A stretch of 32,000 nt of DNA from NCBI RefSeq assembly GCF_014297275.1, contig NZ_JACOQK010000001.1, positions 1,453,584 through 1,485,583 of the forward strand, given 5' to 3'. A program made the position numbers and the translations under genes. This document shows, in pieces, positions 6,694 through 11,248 of this stretch. The stretch's first letter is position 1. Each line of letters starts with the position of its first letter. Below the pieces are notes generated by a model. It saw only the letters and a program-made list of their open reading frames with translations. It ran no database searches and was not told the DNA's origin. This stretch comes from Clostridium facile (GTDB lineage: Bacteria > Bacillota > Clostridia > Oscillospirales > Ruminococcaceae).

Positions 6694-6728
6694 ATAAGCC
6701 ATCAGTTTTCCTGATGGCTTATTTTTTT
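6694..6728 (+). terminator. Rho-independent terminator after the GT2 gene
   Basis: Perfect 12-bp stem ATAAGCCATCAG/CTGATGGCTTAT with a 5-nt loop, followed by a T7 run. Confidence 0.85.
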
Positions 6729-6777: not shown

Positions 6778-6976
6778 ACTTATATACAAAAATAATTCTT
6801 ACAAAGAACACTTCTGTTTTTTGTTTAAAACTACAATATCATTTCGATAAGAAATCTGATAGAATAAATTTTAGTAAATTTTTTCCTGTTATAGGAAGAT
6901 ACAGATTTATTTTACCATTTCAATGAAAAATAACGGGCAATTTTTGCTTGGAACTGGAAAGGAGCAGAAAGAGAAA

Positions 6977-9900
6977 ATGAAAAAAAGAGTTAAATTTATG
7001 AGCCTATTGTTAGCCGGATGCTTATGCCTCCAATGTACAGGCATGGTTTCGTTCGCAAAATCAGAAACATCGGGAAACCAATTATGGTTTGATTTTCAAA
7101 CGCCACCAGACAGCAGTAAAACCCGTCCGCTATGGTTTTGGAATACCGAACTGGATGAAATGACGCCAGAAAAAGTGCGAGAACTTGTTCGGGAATCCTA
7201 TCAACAAAGCGGATATAATGGCTTTGGAATTTTACCAAACTGGATTAGCCAATATCTTTCGGATAACTATTTTGAGTTGTACGAAGCTGCATTGGATGAG
7301 GGAAGCAAATATGGTATGCAGTTCTCACTATATGATGAAAATGGTTTTCCCAGCTATAACGCTGGAGGATTATTGGAAGAAAATTATCCTGAGCTGACTA
7401 CAAAACGTTTGGATAAATTTGAACAGGATGCTTCCAACGGTGAAAAAGTTTATTTATCCCTTCCAGAAGGAAAACTAATGGGTGCAGTTGCGATGAATAT
7501 GGATACAATGGAACGGATTGATATCAGCGACCAAGCTACAATTGTTGATCCTCCTCCATTCAGCCCAGATACCCAGCCTCTGGGGGTTTCCGCTTCTTCT
7601 ACCTATAGTGTAACCAGTGGTTACGAAGCTAGCAAAGCGGTAGATGGTGAACTCTCTACTAGATGGAACGCAGAATCCTTATCCGGTGGTGGTGAGTATC
7701 TGCAAATCAATTTTGGAGAAGAAAAAACCTTCGATTCTGTCAAAGTATATGAAGATAAACTGGAAGAACTACATAGGACCAAAGACTATTCCATCCAATA
7801 CTGGGATATAGCTGAAAATAGGTGGAAAACTGTTGCCACTGGAACTAAAATTACCGATCAGGGTGCAACCCACAGCTTTGAGCCTGTTACTGCCCAATTA
7901 GTTCGCCTTTATATCAGAAATATTACACAGGATAGCGCTTCTATTAGCGAGTTCCAAATTTTTAATGGAAATCAACAGTTAGAAGTTCCTCCTACCCCAC
8001 TTGTTCCAGAGAAAGCTGGATATTCCGCTTCTTCTGTTTATGAAATCGAAGCAGGTTATGAGGCTGATAAAGCATTCGATGGAGATATGACAACCCGTTG
8101 GAATGCAGCTGCCCGGGGTACAGCGCCCCAATGGTTAGAGATTTCTTTTGGGGAAGTCCGGAATGTAAACAAAGCAGTTTTATATGAAGATTTGGACCGT
8201 ATTACCTCATTCCATTTACAATACTGGAATGGTGATTCCTGGGTGGATTGTGCTACAGGTTCTACAATTGGTTCAGCTGGGCTTACCTTAAATTTTGACT
8301 CTGTCCAAACTACAAAAATGCGTTTATTAATGGACGGATTAAATGGAATGAGCCCAACTATCTGGGAAATAGAACTTTATGATGGCAATACAAAAATTCA
8401 GATTAATGAAGATCAACAGCAGCCAGAAAGTTCTCATTTGGAATATACTGTCCCAGATGGAAGCTGGAAAGTAATGGCCTTTATGTGCGTAAAAGACGGC
8501 AACAATGGCATGGATTATTTAGACGCCGATTCTGTACGTGCCTTTATCGATATTACCTATGAAGAATACTATAGCCGGTTCCAAAAATATTTTGAAAATG
8601 GTACCATTACATCCGCTTTTTATGACGAACCAACTTTCTGGCCTTGGCCGGGTACTACTCCTTATGGTGCGGAAGGAGCGCGTTTATGGACACCAGAATA
8701 TAACAAAGCTTATGAAGAAACCTTTAACGGTGAAAGCCCTGTGTTAAATTATCCTGCTTTGTGGTATGAGATTGGTAAAGACACCGACGAAGCAAGAAAT
8801 AAGTTGCAATATGTACGTACCGAGCTGTTCGCAGAAAATTATATTGGACAGATTGCGGACTGGTGTGACGACCATGGAATCGACCTGATGGGACATATGT
8901 TATTGGAAGAATGGGTCAATCCAGTCGGACTTCATGGTGATTTGATGAAAGTGTTTAAAGACCAGCAAATTCCTGGTGTGGACGTTATTGGCAGCTATGG
9001 CTACACCCAAGAAGCTTATAAAATTATATCTTCTTCTGCCAACAATTGGGATAAAGGAGTGGTAATGTCCGAATCATTTGGAGCCATGGGAGAAAATATG
9101 GATAAAAATATCTTACATAAATCTTCTATGGACCAGTACGCAAAAGGAGTTAATATGATTATTCCACATGCTATCTGGTATGATAACATCAACCATGTTG
9201 ATGCTCCACCTGAACTTTCCTACCGTAATGAACGATATCGTGAAGAATTGCCAATCTATAATAACTATATGGGAAGGTTAAATACCATGTTGCAAGATGG
9301 TAGGCATGTTGCGGACATTGCCATGCTTTATCCAATCGATTATTTAGAATCCAGCTTTATCTTCAATGGTGACGCAAATAACCCTTCTGACGCAGACTAT
9401 ATGCGTGTTGGGGAAACTTTATCCTTAACTGCTCGTCGAGATTTTACTTATTTGCATCCAGATATTATTGATGAAAGATGTTCTGTAGATGGAGACACCT
9501 TCCATTTAGAAAATGAAACCAACTATGAAGACTATAAAGTTTTTGTAATTCCAGGTACCAAGGTAATCAGCCTTTCCAATCTGGAAAAAATTAAAGATTT
9601 CTACGATAATGGCGGAAAAGTAATTGCTACCACCCAACTCCCTTATCGTGGAATCGAAGACAGCGAAAATGAACAAGTAATTTCTATTATTAAAGAAATG
9701 TTCCAGGTTGATCCTGTTACAGGGCAATCCTTGGCATCTTCTACGGGGGAATACACCAAAAATACCAATGCGGCAGGTGGTACAGCATATTTCATTCAAA
9801 CTGGATTTGAAACAAAACTGCAAACTGTTTTAGATGATGCTCTCCCAACCTATGATGTGGAAATTGACCAGGTTCCAGCTATTTCTGGCGGTAATTTAAG

Positions 9901-10207
9901 CTACATTCATAAAGTAAAGGATAATCAGGACATCTACTTTATCGCAAATTCCAGTGATACTGCTATGAATATAACCGTTTCACTGCGTGGAGAAATGGAA
10001 CAGCCAATGCTGTGGGACCCCATGACAGGAACAAAACAAGCAGCAACCTTTACAGTAGAAAATGGTATTACAAAAGTTCAATTGAGCTTAACTGGAATAC
10101 AATCTATGTTTATTGTAGATGAAACCCAACCGGTGGTAGAAGAAACAGATAAATCGATATTACAGACAGTCATTCAGTATGCGGAAAACGCAAAAAAAAA
10201 CGGATGA
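6977..10207 (+). CDS. Secreted multidomain glycoside hydrolase with two CBM32 (F5/8 type C, discoidin) domains. The enzyme-bearing part of a frameshifted ~1,400-aa surface protein.
   Basis: ATG at 6977 lies 13 nt after GGAAAGGAG. The signal peptide MKKRVKFMSLLLAGCLCLQCTGMVSFA contains a lipobox-like LAGC. The N-terminal RPLWFWN...GFGILP...LYDENGFPS..AGG resembles the GH106-like 'glycosylhydrolase jelly-roll' group from memory (family not verified). There are two discoidin units. The ORF stops two codons after an A9 run. Confidence 0.85.
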   Translation: MKKRVKFMSLLLAGCLCLQCTGMVSFAKSETSGNQLWFDFQTPPDSSKTRPLWFWNTELDEMTPEKVRELVRESYQQSGYNGFGILPNWISQYLSDNYFELYEAALDEGSKYGMQFSLYDENGFPSYNAGGLLEENYPELTTKRLDKFEQDASNGEKVYLSLPEGKLMGAVAMNMDTMERIDISDQATIVDPPPFSPDTQPLGVSASSTYSVTSGYEASKAVDGELSTRWNAESLSGGGEYLQINFGEEKTFDSVKVYEDKLEELHRTKDYSIQYWDIAENRWKTVATGTKITDQGATHSFEPVTAQLVRLYIRNITQDSASISEFQIFNGNQQLEVPPTPLVPEKAGYSASSVYEIEAGYEADKAFDGDMTTRWNAAARGTAPQWLEISFGEVRNVNKAVLYEDLDRITSFHLQYWNGDSWVDCATGSTIGSAGLTLNFDSVQTTKMRLLMDGLNGMSPTIWEIELYDGNTKIQINEDQQQPESSHLEYTVPDGSWKVMAFMCVKDGNNGMDYLDADSVRAFIDITYEEYYSRFQKYFENGTITSAFYDEPTFWPWPGTTPYGAEGARLWTPEYNKAYEETFNGESPVLNYPALWYEIGKDTDEARNKLQYVRTELFAENYIGQIADWCDDHGIDLMGHMLLEEWVNPVGLHGDLMKVFKDQQIPGVDVIGSYGYTQEAYKIISSSANNWDKGVVMSESFGAMGENMDKNILHKSSMDQYAKGVNMIIPHAIWYDNINHVDAPPELSYRNERYREELPIYNNYMGRLNTMLQDGRHVADIAMLYPIDYLESSFIFNGDANNPSDADYMRVGETLSLTARRDFTYLHPDIIDERCSVDGDTFHLENETNYEDYKVFVIPGTKVISLSNLEKIKDFYDNGGKVIATTQLPYRGIEDSENEQVISIIKEMFQVDPVTGQSLASSTGEYTKNTNAAGGTAYFIQTGFETKLQTVLDDALPTYDVEIDQVPAISGGNLSYIHKVKDNQDIYFIANSSDTAMNITVSLRGEMEQPMLWDPMTGTKQAATFTVENGITKVQLSLTGIQSMFIVDETQPVVEETDKSILQTVIQYAENAKKNG
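7586..8383 (+). repeat. Tandem protein-level duplication: two CBM32/F5-8 type C carbohydrate-binding domains
   Basis: Unit 1 (about 7586-7966): ASSTYSV..GYEASKAVDGELSTRWNA...QYW...VRLYI...ISEFQIF. Unit 2 (about 8018-8383): ASSVYEI..GYEADKAFDGDMTTRWNA...QYW...MRLLM...IWEIELY. Confidence 0.8.
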
Positions 10208-11123
10208 ATATACCAATGCAATCCCATCTGTCAAAGATAGTTTTGACAAGGCTTTGACCGATGCGAAAGCAATCAATGATAATGATTCCGCAACCCAGGA
10301 ACAAATAGACACAGCATGGAGAACATTATTGAATGAAATCCATAAACTAGGATTTCAAGTAGGTGATAAAACAAAACTGCAAGCACTGTATGATGAAATG
10401 AGCAAAGTAGACCTAGACGATTACAAAGATGGTGTATCCAAAGAGAATTTTGTAAAAGCATTAGAACAGGCAGCAACAGTGTTGGCAGACCCAAATACAA
10501 TGCAAAAAGAAATTGACAAAGCATACGACGAACTGGAAACAGCATATAGCCTGTTAGAAAAGGCAGCAGATAAAAGACAACTAAAAGCATTAATCGAAGC
10601 GACAAAAGAATATCAACAAGAAGAATATACAGAAAATACCTGGGGAATCTATGCAGAAGCGAAAGCAAAAGCAGAAGAAGTCTATAACAATGTAGACGCA
10701 ACGCAAGAAGAAATCAATGAAGCAGCAGATAACCTGCTAGCAGGAATGCTACAATTGAGATTCAAAGCGGACAGCTTATTAGAGGAAGTAGTGGAAGAAG
10801 CAAAAGGAATCGATTTAAGCCAATATACAGTAGAAAGCGCAGCAACCTTCCAAGTACTGTTAGCAGAAGCCCAGGAAATGTTAAACAACAATGACCTAAG
10901 TAAAGAAGATGAAGGGACAATTAATGCAAAAGCAATGGAACTGAAGGCGGCACAAAGCAAACTGGAACCAATAAGGACAGCAGGAAGTGAAGCGACCCAA
11001 ACCGTACAAGAAAGCGCAACACCAAAAGCAGATGCAGCGAAAACAGGGGATGTTGTTTCAATCACAGGATTAGGACTATTGATATCAGGAATCAGTTTAC
11101 TCATTTTACGCAAGAAAAAATAG
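10179..11123 (+). CDS. FIVAR-like helical repeat module plus C-terminal sortase-type sorting signal. It is +1 out of frame with the upstream glycosidase ORF and probably not independently translated.
   Basis: Four helical repeats of about 65 aa with ATQE(Q/E)I(D/N).A motifs. The C-terminus is AAKTGD + VVSITGLGLLISGISLLIL + RKKK. There is no SD before the ATG at 10179 and no signal peptide. It overlaps the upstream ORF by 29 nt. Confidence 0.7.
   Translation: MRKTQKKTDEYTNAIPSVKDSFDKALTDAKAINDNDSATQEQIDTAWRTLLNEIHKLGFQVGDKTKLQALYDEMSKVDLDDYKDGVSKENFVKALEQAATVLADPNTMQKEIDKAYDELETAYSLLEKAADKRQLKALIEATKEYQQEEYTENTWGIYAEAKAKAEEVYNNVDATQEEINEAADNLLAGMLQLRFKADSLLEEVVEEAKGIDLSQYTVESAATFQVLLAEAQEMLNNNDLSKEDEGTINAKAMELKAAQSKLEPIRTAGSEATQTVQESATPKADAAKTGDVVSITGLGLLISGISLLILRKKK
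10192..10200 (+). repeat. A9 homopolymer at the frameshift point of the glycosidase gene
   Basis: gcg gaa aac gca aaa aaa aac gga tga. There are nine consecutive A. Deleting one A joins the two ORFs as ...AENAKKTDEYTNA... Confidence 0.95.
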
Positions 11124-11215: not shown

Positions 11216-11248
11216 AAAAACGCACCTGATAAAACAGGTGCGTTTTTT
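11216..11248. terminator. Bidirectional rho-independent terminator
   Basis: AAAAA + CGCACCTG (11221-11228), loop ATAAAA, CAGGTGCG (11235-11242) + T6. Lies between convergent genes. Confidence 0.85.

What the first reader, a model, noticed from the sequence alone, without database searches (positions are those of the whole stretch)
10179..10207. An A9 homopolymer uncouples a ~1,400-aa surface glycosidase from its repeat stalk and cell-wall anchor
**What the sequence shows.** The glycosidase ORF (6977-10207) ends ...QYAENAKKNG* two codons after nine consecutive A (10192-10200). The following ORF (10179-11123) is in the +1 frame and overlaps by 29 nt. It has no Shine-Dalgarno sequence and no signal peptide. 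Yet it encodes four FIVAR-like helical repeats and a C-terminal sorting signal (AAKTGD, hydrophobic helix, RKKK), which is only meaningful on an exported protein.

**Effect of tract length.** Removing one A gives ...KSILQTVIQYAENAKKTDEYTNAIPSVKDSFDKALTDAKA.... This seamlessly completes a FIVAR-like unit that begins in the upstream ORF. As written, the enzyme would be exported without its stalk and anchor. With A8 or A11 it would be wall-anchored.

**Possible explanations.**
- A homopolymer sequencing or assembly error.
- Slipped-strand phase variation between released and anchored forms.
- RNA-polymerase slippage on the A9 tract, giving both isoforms from one gene. A/T tracts of about 9 nt are known to support transcriptional slippage in bacteria.
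Basis: partly seen in the sequence, partly recalled or inferred. Interest (0 to 1): 0.7.

Follow-up and report, generated by a model that had tools for sequence, protein, structure and literature searches.

The report
One-strain frameshift splitting anchored glycosidase
A gut bacterium's gene for a wall-anchored sugar-cutting enzyme is split by one extra A in a run of A's, but only in this one genome assembly, so it is an ordinary strain-private mutation or sequencing error rather than an evolved switch.

Summary
A9 lies at 10192-10200. The glycosidase ORF (6977-10207) stops two codons later. The +1-frame ORF (10179-11123) carries the remaining FIVAR repeats and a C-terminal sorting signal. 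Deleting one A gives exactly the junction (AENAKKTDEY) of intact 1382-aa proteins from near-identical Massilioclostridium coli genomes. The window is 'Clostridium facile' NSJ-27.

At DNA level, 11 related loci all have 8 nt here: eight A8 and three AAAAACAA. None has A9. A distant homologue keeps the AENAKK peptide but encodes it AAG AAG. The tract is therefore a by-product of codon usage, not a conserved slippery site.

Programmed slippage and evolved phase variation are unsupported. What remains is a strain-private +1 A. It is either a real slipped-strand mutation or a consensus error of a long-read-only (inferred PacBio RSII) assembly. I cannot separate these without reads (about 50:38).
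- For real: 69 of 70 other homopolymers agree with a relative, the tail has a second private lesion, and the closest relatives carry independent, certainly real disruptions of this gene.
- If real: the enzyme is secreted unanchored, like natural tail-less homologues, with incidental partial rescue by RNA-polymerase slippage.

Low interest.

The parts
6694..6722 (+). Terminator-like hairpin ending the upstream GT2 gene. Marks the 5' limit of the glycosidase transcription unit.
   Evidence: 12-bp stem, T-run.
6977..10207 (+). ORF A: 1076-aa glycosidase part (an alternative upstream ATG lies at 6923). It holds a signal peptide, 2 x F5/8 type C domains, a GH106-like catalytic module and the first 17 residues of FIVAR repeat 1. 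It ends AENAKKNG*.
   Evidence: Identical to MBC5787589.1 / WP_186996484.1. An AAAGGAG Shine-Dalgarno lies 12 nt before ATG 6977.
6977..7057 (+). Predicted Sec signal peptide MKKRVKFMSLLLAGCLCLQCTGMVSFA | KSE.
   Evidence: By reading (basic n-region, hydrophobic core, small-x-small site). The equivalent N-termini of P0002 and P0003 end AAA|D and TQA|Q. No predictor was run.
10192..10200 (+). A9 homopolymer: the frameshift site, with one A more than in every related locus.
10148..10361 (+). FIVAR repeat 1 (DKSILQTVIQYAENAKK|TDEY...HKLGFQV). It spans the frameshift and is complete only when one A is removed.
10179..11123 (+). ORF B: 314-aa out-of-frame continuation holding the rest of FIVAR 1, FIVAR 2-4, a linker and the sorting signal. 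Its ATG is an out-of-frame accident (cAG TAT GCG in the intact gene). It has no Shine-Dalgarno and no signal peptide.
   Evidence: Identical to MBC5787590.1 / WP_186996485.1.
10770..10775 (+). Site of a second window-private lesion: an in-frame 3-nt deletion (GAC AAG AGC -> GAC AGC). It removes the K of the 'ADKS' motif that opens FIVAR repeat 4.
   Evidence: The K is present in all 10 compared alleles and in 23 of about 37 tail-bearing homologues.
11034..11120 (+). C-terminal sorting signal: AAKTGD, hydrophobic segment VVSITGLGLLISGISLLIL, then RKKK.
   Evidence: for coordinates. TIGR01167 scores 13.9 bits, below the 15.9 cut-off. The pattern [SAN][AP]KTG[DE] + TM + basic tail is conserved in P0002, P0003, P0009, P0022, P0024, P0027.
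11216..11247 (+). Strong intrinsic-terminator-like hairpin ending the transcription unit. No terminator lies between ORF A and ORF B.

Best explanation
Positions 6977-11123 are a single gene. It encodes a secreted GH106-like glycosidase with two discoidin domains, a four-repeat FIVAR stalk and a sortase-type C-terminal anchor.

In this one isolate ('Clostridium facile' NSJ-27, conspecific by sequence with Massilioclostridium coli), an ordinary A8 run has gained one A by slipped-strand mispairing. The run arises only because Ala-Lys-Lys-Thr is encoded GCA AAA AAA ACG. I take the change to be a genuine, recent, non-programmed frameshift in a weakly constrained accessory gene that is also decaying in the strain's closest relatives.

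**Inferred consequences.**
- The main product is a 1076-aa enzyme that is exported but lacks stalk and anchor. It is equivalent in extent to the natural tail-less homologues and is therefore released.
- ORF B is not translated on its own.
- Because A9 is a known slippage-prone length, a minority of transcripts (A8 or A11) probably still give the full-length anchored protein. This would be an accident of the mutation, not an evolved device.

**Shown:** one gene, a private +1 A, no conservation of the tract, and independent lesions in relatives.

**Inferred:** that the extra A is in the DNA rather than only in the assembly, export and release of the truncated enzyme, and partial rescue by slippage.

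The confidence of 0.5 is for the full statement, including that the A9 is real. The core claim (one gene, strain-private, non-programmed +1 A, whether mutation or artefact) I hold at about 0.9.
For: **One gene.**
- Intact 1375-1400-aa proteins at 99% identity exist (P0001, P0124, P0126, P0127). P0124 has the exact repaired junction.
- 59-64% orthologues (P0002, P0003) are also fused.
- FIVAR 1 spans the junction.
- Terminators bracket the unit and none lies between the ORFs.

**Private and non-programmed.**
- 11 of 11 related loci have 8 nt at the site.
- P0022 encodes the same AENAKK peptide as AAG AAG.
- No downstream RNA structure is predicted (z = -0.65).

**Real rather than artefact.**
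- 69 of 70 homopolymers of 6 nt or more have the same length as in L001 over 21 kb.
- The other runs of 8 lie in intact ORFs.
- Coverage is 427x.
- A second private lesion lies 580 bp downstream in the tail. It is a non-homopolymer 3-nt deletion of a conserved K.
- The strain has a real private branch of 3 synonymous SNPs in 8.5 kb.
- Its nearest relatives (identical GT2 neighbour) all carry a different broken allele, with delA at the equivalent of 9946 plus GAA->TAA at 10866. This allele is seen in about 7 independent assemblies.
- This sub-lineage has Y714H and D598E at positions that are Y in 114/119 and D in 111/119 homologues.
- pN/pS is 0.19-0.45, against 0.04-0.09 for flanking genes.

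**Truncated enzyme plausible as a soluble form.**
- Many natural homologues of 1030-1090 aa end at ...LFLVEG, about 25 residues before this stop.

**Slippage at A9.**
- Baranov et al. 2005 (PMC1088944) describe 9A/9T runs as slippage-prone, and T. thermophilus dnaX A9 gives about 50%.
- C. rodentium tssM1 A11 shows about 20% rescue (PMC4256274).
- A9/T9 runs are depleted in the window, 1 found against 5.8 expected.
Against: - The assembly is almost certainly long-read-only: 2 contigs with N50 2.74 Mb in a species with five rRNA operons. The paper's methods give PacBio RSII + HGAP with no short-read polishing.
- Homopolymer indels are the dominant residual error of such assemblies (PMC12007338).
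- The A9 is the longest homopolymer in the window and is seen in no independent assembly.
- The window's private differences inside the 4-kb gene are two indels and no substitutions. That is the error signature of long reads.
- The platform for this particular strain is inferred, not stated.
- No read, RNA or protein data were available.
Confidence: 0.5

Rival explanations
1. Assembly artefact. The strain has A8 and an intact gene, and the ninth A is a consensus miscall of a PacBio-only (HGAP/Quiver) assembly at its longest local homopolymer.
For: - Long-read-only assembly is inferred.
- Homopolymer indels dominate long-read errors and fragment genes.
- A9 is found in this assembly only, whereas 8 of 11 relatives, including near-identical alleles, have A8.
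- The window has no private substitutions in the gene, only indels.
Against: - Coverage is 427x.
- 69 of 70 other homopolymers of 6 nt or more match a relative over 21 kb. No other gene in the 32-kb window is broken.
- The accompanying private 3-nt deletion is not at a homopolymer, so it is unlikely to be a consensus error. It shows that this tail really has changed in this strain.
- PacBio-solo bacterial assemblies can be error-free (title of PMC7363880).
Confidence: 0.38
2. Slipped-strand phase variation. The poly-A tract is a contingency locus that reversibly switches the enzyme between wall-anchored (A8) and released (A9) states.
For: - The gene encodes a surface protein and the tract is in the coding sequence.
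- A8/A9 runs are mutable.
- One OFF-anchor allele is observed, in the window.
- Released and anchored architectures both exist in the family.
Against: - Only 1 of 12 alleles deviates.
- 3 of 12 alleles have the tract interrupted (AAAAACAA) and remain in frame, including the type strain.
- The peptide is kept with AAG AAG codons in P0022, and P0002 and P0003 have no KK.
- Other lineages lose the tail by non-reversible lesions, a delA in an A3 run and a nonsense codon.
- The tract length is at the low end for hypermutable poly-A.
Confidence: 0.07
3. Programmed transcriptional slippage, or +1 ribosomal frameshifting, on A9 yields a fixed ratio of released and anchored isoforms from one gene, as in C. 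rodentium tssM1 or T. thermophilus dnaX.
For: - A9 is a proven slippage-prone length in several bacteria.
- The stop lies 2 codons after the tract.
- Both products would be sensible proteins.
Against: - The out-of-frame arrangement is not conserved in any of 11 conspecific loci or in orthologues.
- The break lies inside FIVAR helix 1, not at a domain boundary.
- There is no stimulatory RNA structure or upstream SD-like element.
- A second private lesion in the tail suggests relaxed rather than maintained function.
Confidence: 0.04
4. Two genuine genes: a secreted enzyme and a separately expressed FIVAR/anchor protein.
For: GenBank and RefSeq annotate them as two CDS.
Against: - ORF B has no Shine-Dalgarno and no signal peptide, and it starts inside a FIVAR repeat.
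- Its ATG is out of frame in the intact alleles.
- No homologue has a stand-alone tail gene.
Confidence: 0.01

Closest known systems
Citrobacter rodentium tssM1 (A11) and Yersinia pseudotuberculosis tssM3: transcriptional frameshifting giving two length variants (Gueguen et al. 2014, PMC4256274)
   Same: The gene is interrupted just after a poly-A run. The truncated product lacks a C-terminal domain needed for attachment or interaction. RNA-polymerase slippage can restore the frame in about 20% of products.
   Different: - There, the interrupted state was re-sequenced, both forms were shown to be needed, and a second species uses the same site.
- Here the A9 state is unique to one assembly, unverified, and absent from all relatives.
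Thermus thermophilus dnaX A9 and Shigella mxiE T9 programmed transcriptional slippage; the S. aureus mapW 9A candidate (Baranov et al. 2005, PMC1088944)
   Same: A 9-nt A/T run in the sense strand lies at the junction of two frames. mapW is likewise a Gram-positive surface-protein gene split at 9A.
   Different: In those cases the arrangement is conserved or functionally shown. Here the comparative test for conservation fails.
'Savior' slippage on frameshifted poly(A) genes in endosymbionts (Buchnera, Blochmannia; cited in PMC3017870 and PMC5009743)
   Same: A non-programmed frameshift mutation at a poly-A tract is partly rescued by polymerase infidelity. This is the mechanism I infer if the A9 is real.
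   Different: Those genomes have many such tracts and degraded repair. This is a single locus in a free-living gut Firmicute.
Gene-fragmenting homopolymer indel errors in long-read-only assemblies (e.g. Kastor paper, PMC12007338)
   Same: A single-base length error at the longest local homopolymer splits one gene into two annotated CDS. It is private to one long-read assembly.
   Different: Apart from this site the assembly shows no homopolymer discrepancies over 21 kb, and coverage is very high.
LPXTG / (S/P)PXTG sortase-anchored, FIVAR-stalked glycosidases of Firmicutes (e.g. LnbX, HypBA2 and ZmpB-type C-termini hit by NCBIfam)
   Same: The architecture is signal peptide, catalytic module, FIVAR repeats, then xxKTG + TM + basic tail. 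The tail hits the C-terminal FIVAR regions of LnbX, ZmpB and HypBA2 models.
   Different: - The motif is AAKTG, not LPXTG, and falls below the TIGR01167 cut-off.
- The catalytic module is only distantly GH106-like and its substrate is unknown.

Membership tests
Programmed transcriptional-slippage recoding site | Sense-strand A or T run of about 9 or more at the junction of two overlapping frames whose fusion gives a sensible protein | tested here: met
   A9 at 10192-10200. The A8 or A11 read-through gives the full FIVAR/anchor protein.
Programmed transcriptional-slippage recoding site | The out-of-frame arrangement and the tract are conserved among relatives | tested here: not met
   0 of 11 related loci have A9. 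Three have an interrupted tract, and P0022 encodes the same peptide with AAG AAG.
Programmed transcriptional-slippage recoding site | mRNA tract-length heterogeneity exceeding that of the DNA, and both protein isoforms present | not testable with these tools
   No RNA or proteome data.
SSR-mediated phase-variable (contingency) locus | Hypermutable repeat inside or upstream of a surface-protein gene | tested here: met
   An A8/A9 run lies inside a signal-peptide plus sorting-signal protein gene.
SSR-mediated phase-variable (contingency) locus | ON/OFF tract lengths recurrently polymorphic among strains or populations, with the tract maintained | tested here: not met
   Of 12 alleles, 8 are A8, 3 are AAAAACAA and 1 is A9 (a singleton). 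The tract is absent in homologues.
SSR-mediated phase-variable (contingency) locus | Within-culture length heterogeneity and reversible switching | not testable with these tools
   No reads available.
Long-read homopolymer assembly error | Indel private to one long-read-only assembly, at a long homopolymer, breaking a gene that is intact in close relatives | tested here: met
   The platform is inferred from contiguity and the paper's methods.
Long-read homopolymer assembly error | Other homopolymer discrepancies or broken genes nearby (general error signature) | tested here: not met
   69 of 70 homopolymers of 6 nt or more agree with L001. No other split gene is seen in 32 kb.
Long-read homopolymer assembly error | Reads or independent sequencing contradict the consensus | not testable with these tools
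   Neither the repaired protein nor the A9 products occur in any other assembly.
Sortase-anchored (LPXTG-type) surface protein | N-terminal Sec signal peptide | tested here: met
   MKKRVKFMSLLLAGCLCLQCTGMVSFA|KSE by inspection. Homologues have equivalent N-termini. No predictor was run.
Sortase-anchored (LPXTG-type) surface protein | C-terminal LPXTG-like motif, hydrophobic segment and basic tail | tested here: inconclusive
   The motif is AAKTGD + 19 hydrophobic residues + RKKK. TIGR01167 scores 13.9 bits against a cut-off of 15.9. The [SAN][AP]KTG[DE] pattern is conserved in six homologues and resembles the clostridial (S/P)PXTG motif (own knowledge).
Sortase-anchored (LPXTG-type) surface protein | Cognate sortase encoded in the genome | not testable with these tools
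   No sortase was found among the window ORFs scanned here or the neighbouring genes with precomputed Pfam hits. The rest of the genome is not available.
GH106 (alpha-L-rhamnosidase family, Pfam PF17132) | Significant match to the family model | tested here: met
   96.1 bits against a cut-off of 29, covering profile positions 231-742 of 743. There are weak PDB sequence hits to the GH106 structures 5mqm and 6q2f.
GH106 (alpha-L-rhamnosidase family, Pfam PF17132) | Equivalog-level identity to a characterised rhamnosidase | tested here: not met
   NF049897 scores 48.6 bits against a cut-off of 1300. Substrate is unknown.
FIVAR repeat stalk | Tandem ~70-aa FIVAR domains | tested here: met
   The fused tail has 4 stretches at E = 1.3e-19. 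The repeats align with an (A)DKxxL start motif.

The most novel reading that the evidence does not exclude
The A9 is real and the A8/A9 tract acts as a simple switch or rheostat. It would work by DNA slippage between generations and RNA-polymerase slippage within a cell, and would set the ratio of released to wall-anchored glycosidase in a human gut commensal. The recurrent, independent loss of the anchor in other M. coli lineages would then reflect selection for the released form, not decay.
Probability: 0.07. Interest if true: 0.5.

Novelty: already known. Interest (0 to 1): 0.15.

Why it matters
**Practical consequences.**
- The record's two CDS (WP_186996484.1 and WP_186996485.1) should be read as one frameshifted gene. 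The 314-aa 'FIVAR domain-containing protein' is not a real stand-alone protein.
- This is a worked example of why a homopolymer frameshift in a long-read-only genome should not be interpreted as recoding or phase variation without comparative or read evidence.

**Biological interest.** This is modest. Within one gut species the same anchored glycosidase gene exists as an intact allele, as an allele broken in three pieces, and as this A9 allele. The enzyme or its anchoring is therefore dispensable in some hosts.

If the A9 were verified and shown to give both isoforms, it would be a further instance of the tssM1 type of rescue, in a Firmicute surface enzyme. It would be a new member of a known kind, not a new mechanism.

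Tried and rejected
1. Scans of genome contigs and metagenome contigs for the tract flanks, with a variable-gap pattern and then an exact 32-mer, found nothing.
2. Exact look-up of ORF B in the contig index found nothing. Exact look-up of the repaired protein, with or without the private K deletion and from either start, also found nothing. No independent assembly of this allele exists.
3. Look-ups with the neighbouring U32 peptidase and GT2 proteins, meant to find closer relatives, returned only loci already seen or 3-piece alleles.
4. A downstream frameshift-stimulating RNA structure was sought. Folding of 10201-10300 is not better than shuffles (z = -0.65).
5. A lipoprotein signal (LAGC in the signal peptide) was considered and rejected, because P0003 lacks the Cys and all have an AxA-type site further on.
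6. pN/pS among alleles shows weaker constraint than in neighbouring genes, but not neutrality. It does not decide between a real change and an artefact.
7. Structure prediction and fold search were not used. They would not bear on the question.
Full report
**1. Observation**

- Nine consecutive A occupy 10192-10200. This is the only A9/T9 run in the window, against 5.8 +/- 3.9 expected from dinucleotide shuffles.
- The upstream ORF runs from ATG 6923, or from 6977, which has an AAAGGAG Shine-Dalgarno and is the start used in GenBank. It ends ...QYAENAKKNG* at 10207.
- The next ORF (10179-11123) is in the +1 frame, overlaps by 29 nt, has no Shine-Dalgarno-like motif in the preceding 20 nt and starts MRKTQKKTDEY... 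with no hydrophobic segment.
- Deleting one A gives a single 1399-aa protein (1381 aa from 6977). Adding two A also restores the frame.

**2. What the gene encodes**

- ORF A has two F5/8 type C (discoidin) domains and a Glyco_hydro_106 match above threshold (96.1 bits against a cut-off of 29).
- It is far from the NCBIfam rhamnosidase equivalog (48.6 bits against 1300). PDB sequence matches to the GH106 structures 5mqm and 6q2f are weak and C-terminal only. It is a GH106-like glycosidase of unknown substrate.
- ORF B is FIVAR repeats plus AAKTGD, a 19-residue hydrophobic stretch and RKKK.
- The fused tail contains four FIVAR units that each open with an (A)DKxxL motif. The first unit matches the Pfam profile from position 1 to 70 only when the ORFs are joined; ORF B alone gives 12-70. 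The break therefore lies inside helix 1 of a domain, not between domains.
- The sorting-signal pattern [SAN][AP]KTG[DE] + TM + basic tail recurs in six homologues. It scores just below the TIGR01167 cut-off.
- Terminator-like hairpins lie at 6694-6722 and 11216-11247, and none lies between the ORFs.

**3. Source of the window**

- ORF B is identical to MBC5787590.1 / WP_186996485.1, and ORF A (from 6977) to MBC5787589.1 / WP_186996484.1. Both come from 'Clostridium facile', on a 2,737,302-bp contig.
- This is strain NSJ-27 of the hGMB biobank, accession JACOQK000000000: 2 contigs, N50 2,737,302, 427x (PMC8140505, Table S6).
- The paper sequenced genomes either by PacBio RSII + HGAP or by 150-bp Illumina + SPAdes, and mentions no hybrid polishing.
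- The conspecific type strain has five rRNA operons (PMC5310180). A 2.7-Mb contig therefore implies the long-read route. This is an inference; the table does not list the platform.

**4. Comparative evidence**

It contains intact 1375-1400-aa proteins from Massilioclostridium coli:
  - WP_159427383.1 (type strain), junction AENAKTTDEY.
  - WP_270739726.1, junction AENAKKTDEY, exactly the predicted repair.
- I fetched DNA for 11 related loci: two isolates, one MAG, and ENA and Logan metagenome contigs.
- At the tract, eight loci read AAAAAAAA and three read AAAAACAA. None reads A9. The tract length does not toggle.
- In P0022 (52% identity) the peptide YAENAKKSDEF is conserved but encoded GCA AAG AAG. 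The closest orthologues in other species (P0002, P0003) have no KK at the site and are single fused proteins.
- The A-run is therefore a by-product of AAA codon preference in a 39% GC genome. It is not a conserved slippery element.
- Folding of the 100 nt downstream is unremarkable (z = -0.65).
- These results remove the support for programmed slippage and for an evolved contingency locus. They also refute a two-gene reading.

**5. Real mutation or assembly error?**

For an error:
- The assembly is long-read-only.
- The A9 is the longest local homopolymer.
- It is private to this assembly.
- Inside the 4-kb gene the window's private differences are two indels and no substitution.
- Homopolymer indels are the main residual error of long reads (PMC12007338).

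For a real change:
- Over 21 kb aligned to L001 (99.3% identity), 69 of 70 homopolymers of 6 nt or more have identical length.
- The other three runs of 8 lie in intact ORFs, and no other gene in the window is split.
- Coverage is 427x.
- The second private lesion (GAC AAG AGC -> GAC AGC at 10772/10773) is not at a homopolymer, so it is probably genuine. It removes the K of the ADKS motif that opens FIVAR 4. That K is present in all other alleles and in most tail-bearing homologues.
- The strain has a true private branch of three synonymous SNPs in 8.5 kb.
- Its nearest relatives are those with an identical GT2 neighbour and a nearly identical glycosidase sequence. All carry a different disrupted allele: deletion of one A in GCAAAT at the equivalent of 9946, plus GAA->TAA at 10866. 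Gene callers report this as three pieces of 996/1014 + 301 + 81 aa. It is seen in about seven assemblies from several studies, so it is certainly real.
- That frameshift removes about 65 conserved residues of the catalytic module's last domain, so it is gene decay rather than mere release.
- The window and the 3-piece sub-lineage share Y714H (Y in 114/119 homologues) and D598E (D in 111/119).
- pN/pS among alleles is 0.19-0.45, against 0.04-0.09 for flanking genes.

A weakly constrained, locally decaying gene with a mutable A8 run is a likely place for a genuine +1 slip. I put a real mutation at about 0.5 and an artefact at about 0.38. Only reads or re-sequencing can decide.

**6. Mechanism if real**

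- The enzyme keeps its signal peptide and its complete catalytic module.
- Natural homologues of 1030-1090 aa without any tail end at ...LFLVEG, about 25 residues before this stop. The truncated product should therefore fold and be released.
- ORF B's ATG is an out-of-frame accident (cAG TAT GCG), so the tail would not be made on its own.
- A9 is the length at which many bacteria show selection against A/T runs. T. thermophilus dnaX slips about 50% at this length (PMC1088944), and an A11 run rescues about 20% of C. rodentium TssM1 (PMC4256274).
- Some A8 or A11 transcripts, and hence some anchored full-length protein, are therefore expected. This is inference from other organisms. In my reading it is incidental 'savior' slippage, not design.

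**7. Comparison and novelty**

- The nearest known cases are tssM1, dnaX, mxiE and mapW for slippage, the endosymbiont poly(A) rescues, and the well-known gene-fragmenting errors of long-read assemblies.
- The locus meets the structural criteria of a slippage site, namely the run and the overlapping frames. It fails the conservation criterion, which was tested here.
- It is a frameshifted gene of a familiar kind, so I score novelty as 'already known' and interest at 0.15.
- The most novel reading not excluded is a functional released/anchored switch. I give it about 7%.

Noticed in passing
Equivalent of window 9946 and 10866; loci L004-L010, L015-L016 (e.g. L004 3014-7161): A common 'three-piece' allele of the same glycosidase gene. 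One A is deleted in GCAAAT (...DIYFIAIPVILL*) and there is a GAA->TAA nonsense codon (...FQVLLA*). It occurs in about seven independent assemblies, including MAG GCA_003151015.1. The gene is genuinely decaying in the window strain's closest relatives.
   Followed up: yes
window 10772/10773: A window-private in-frame 3-nt deletion (AAG) removes the conserved K of the 'ADKS' start of FIVAR repeat 4. With the extra A, it is one of only two private changes in the 4-kb gene.
   Followed up: partly
window 1-21127 vs L003 (GCA_900095865.1) and L001 (GCA_027723205.1): 'Clostridium facile' NSJ-27 is 99.1-99.4% identical over 21 kb to Massilioclostridium coli genomes, including the type strain. It therefore looks conspecific, with 'C. 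facile' a probable later synonym. The hGMB paper names C. methylpentosum as nearest relative and gives 48.02% G+C. The window is 38.9% G+C and M. coli is 39.97%.
   Followed up: partly
window 8768-8770 (D598E), 9116-9118 (Y714H); also P0124 residue 588, P0127 residue 1004: Each M. coli allele carries a replacement at a near-invariant family position. The window and 3-piece lineage have Y714H (Y in 114/119) and D598E (D in 111/119). P0124 has P588L (P in 119/119). The type strain has R1004H (R in 102/119). This suggests relaxed constraint on the enzyme across the species.
   Followed up: partly
window 10346-10364: A tight cluster of 7 substitutions within 19 nt distinguishes L001 and L002 from all other alleles in FIVAR 1. 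It looks like a small recombination or gene-conversion tract between repeats.
   Followed up: no
L003 148-2670 vs L001 507-2669 (upstream of the window): A TIR_2/DUF6273 gene is a single 720-aa ORF in L001 but is split into 640 + 169 aa in the M. coli type strain. This is another strain-specific gene disruption nearby.
   Followed up: no
Protein family: The same discoidin + GH106-like catalytic module is coupled in different taxa to no tail, FIVAR plus sorting signal, dockerin, Big_2 arrays, extra discoidin/CBM modules, or a T9SS C-terminal domain (PF18962). This is a clear case of anchor-module swapping.
   Followed up: partly
P0133, P0134 (cluster members): Two short public 'proteins' in the cluster end or begin in sequences that look like translated Nextera adapter (...LLYTS..., ...KMCIRDS...). 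They appear to be artefacts of untrimmed metagenome contigs.
   Followed up: no
whole window: A9/T9 runs are depleted (1 found against 5.8 expected from dinucleotide shuffles). This is consistent with selection against slippage-prone runs in this organism.
   Followed up: partly
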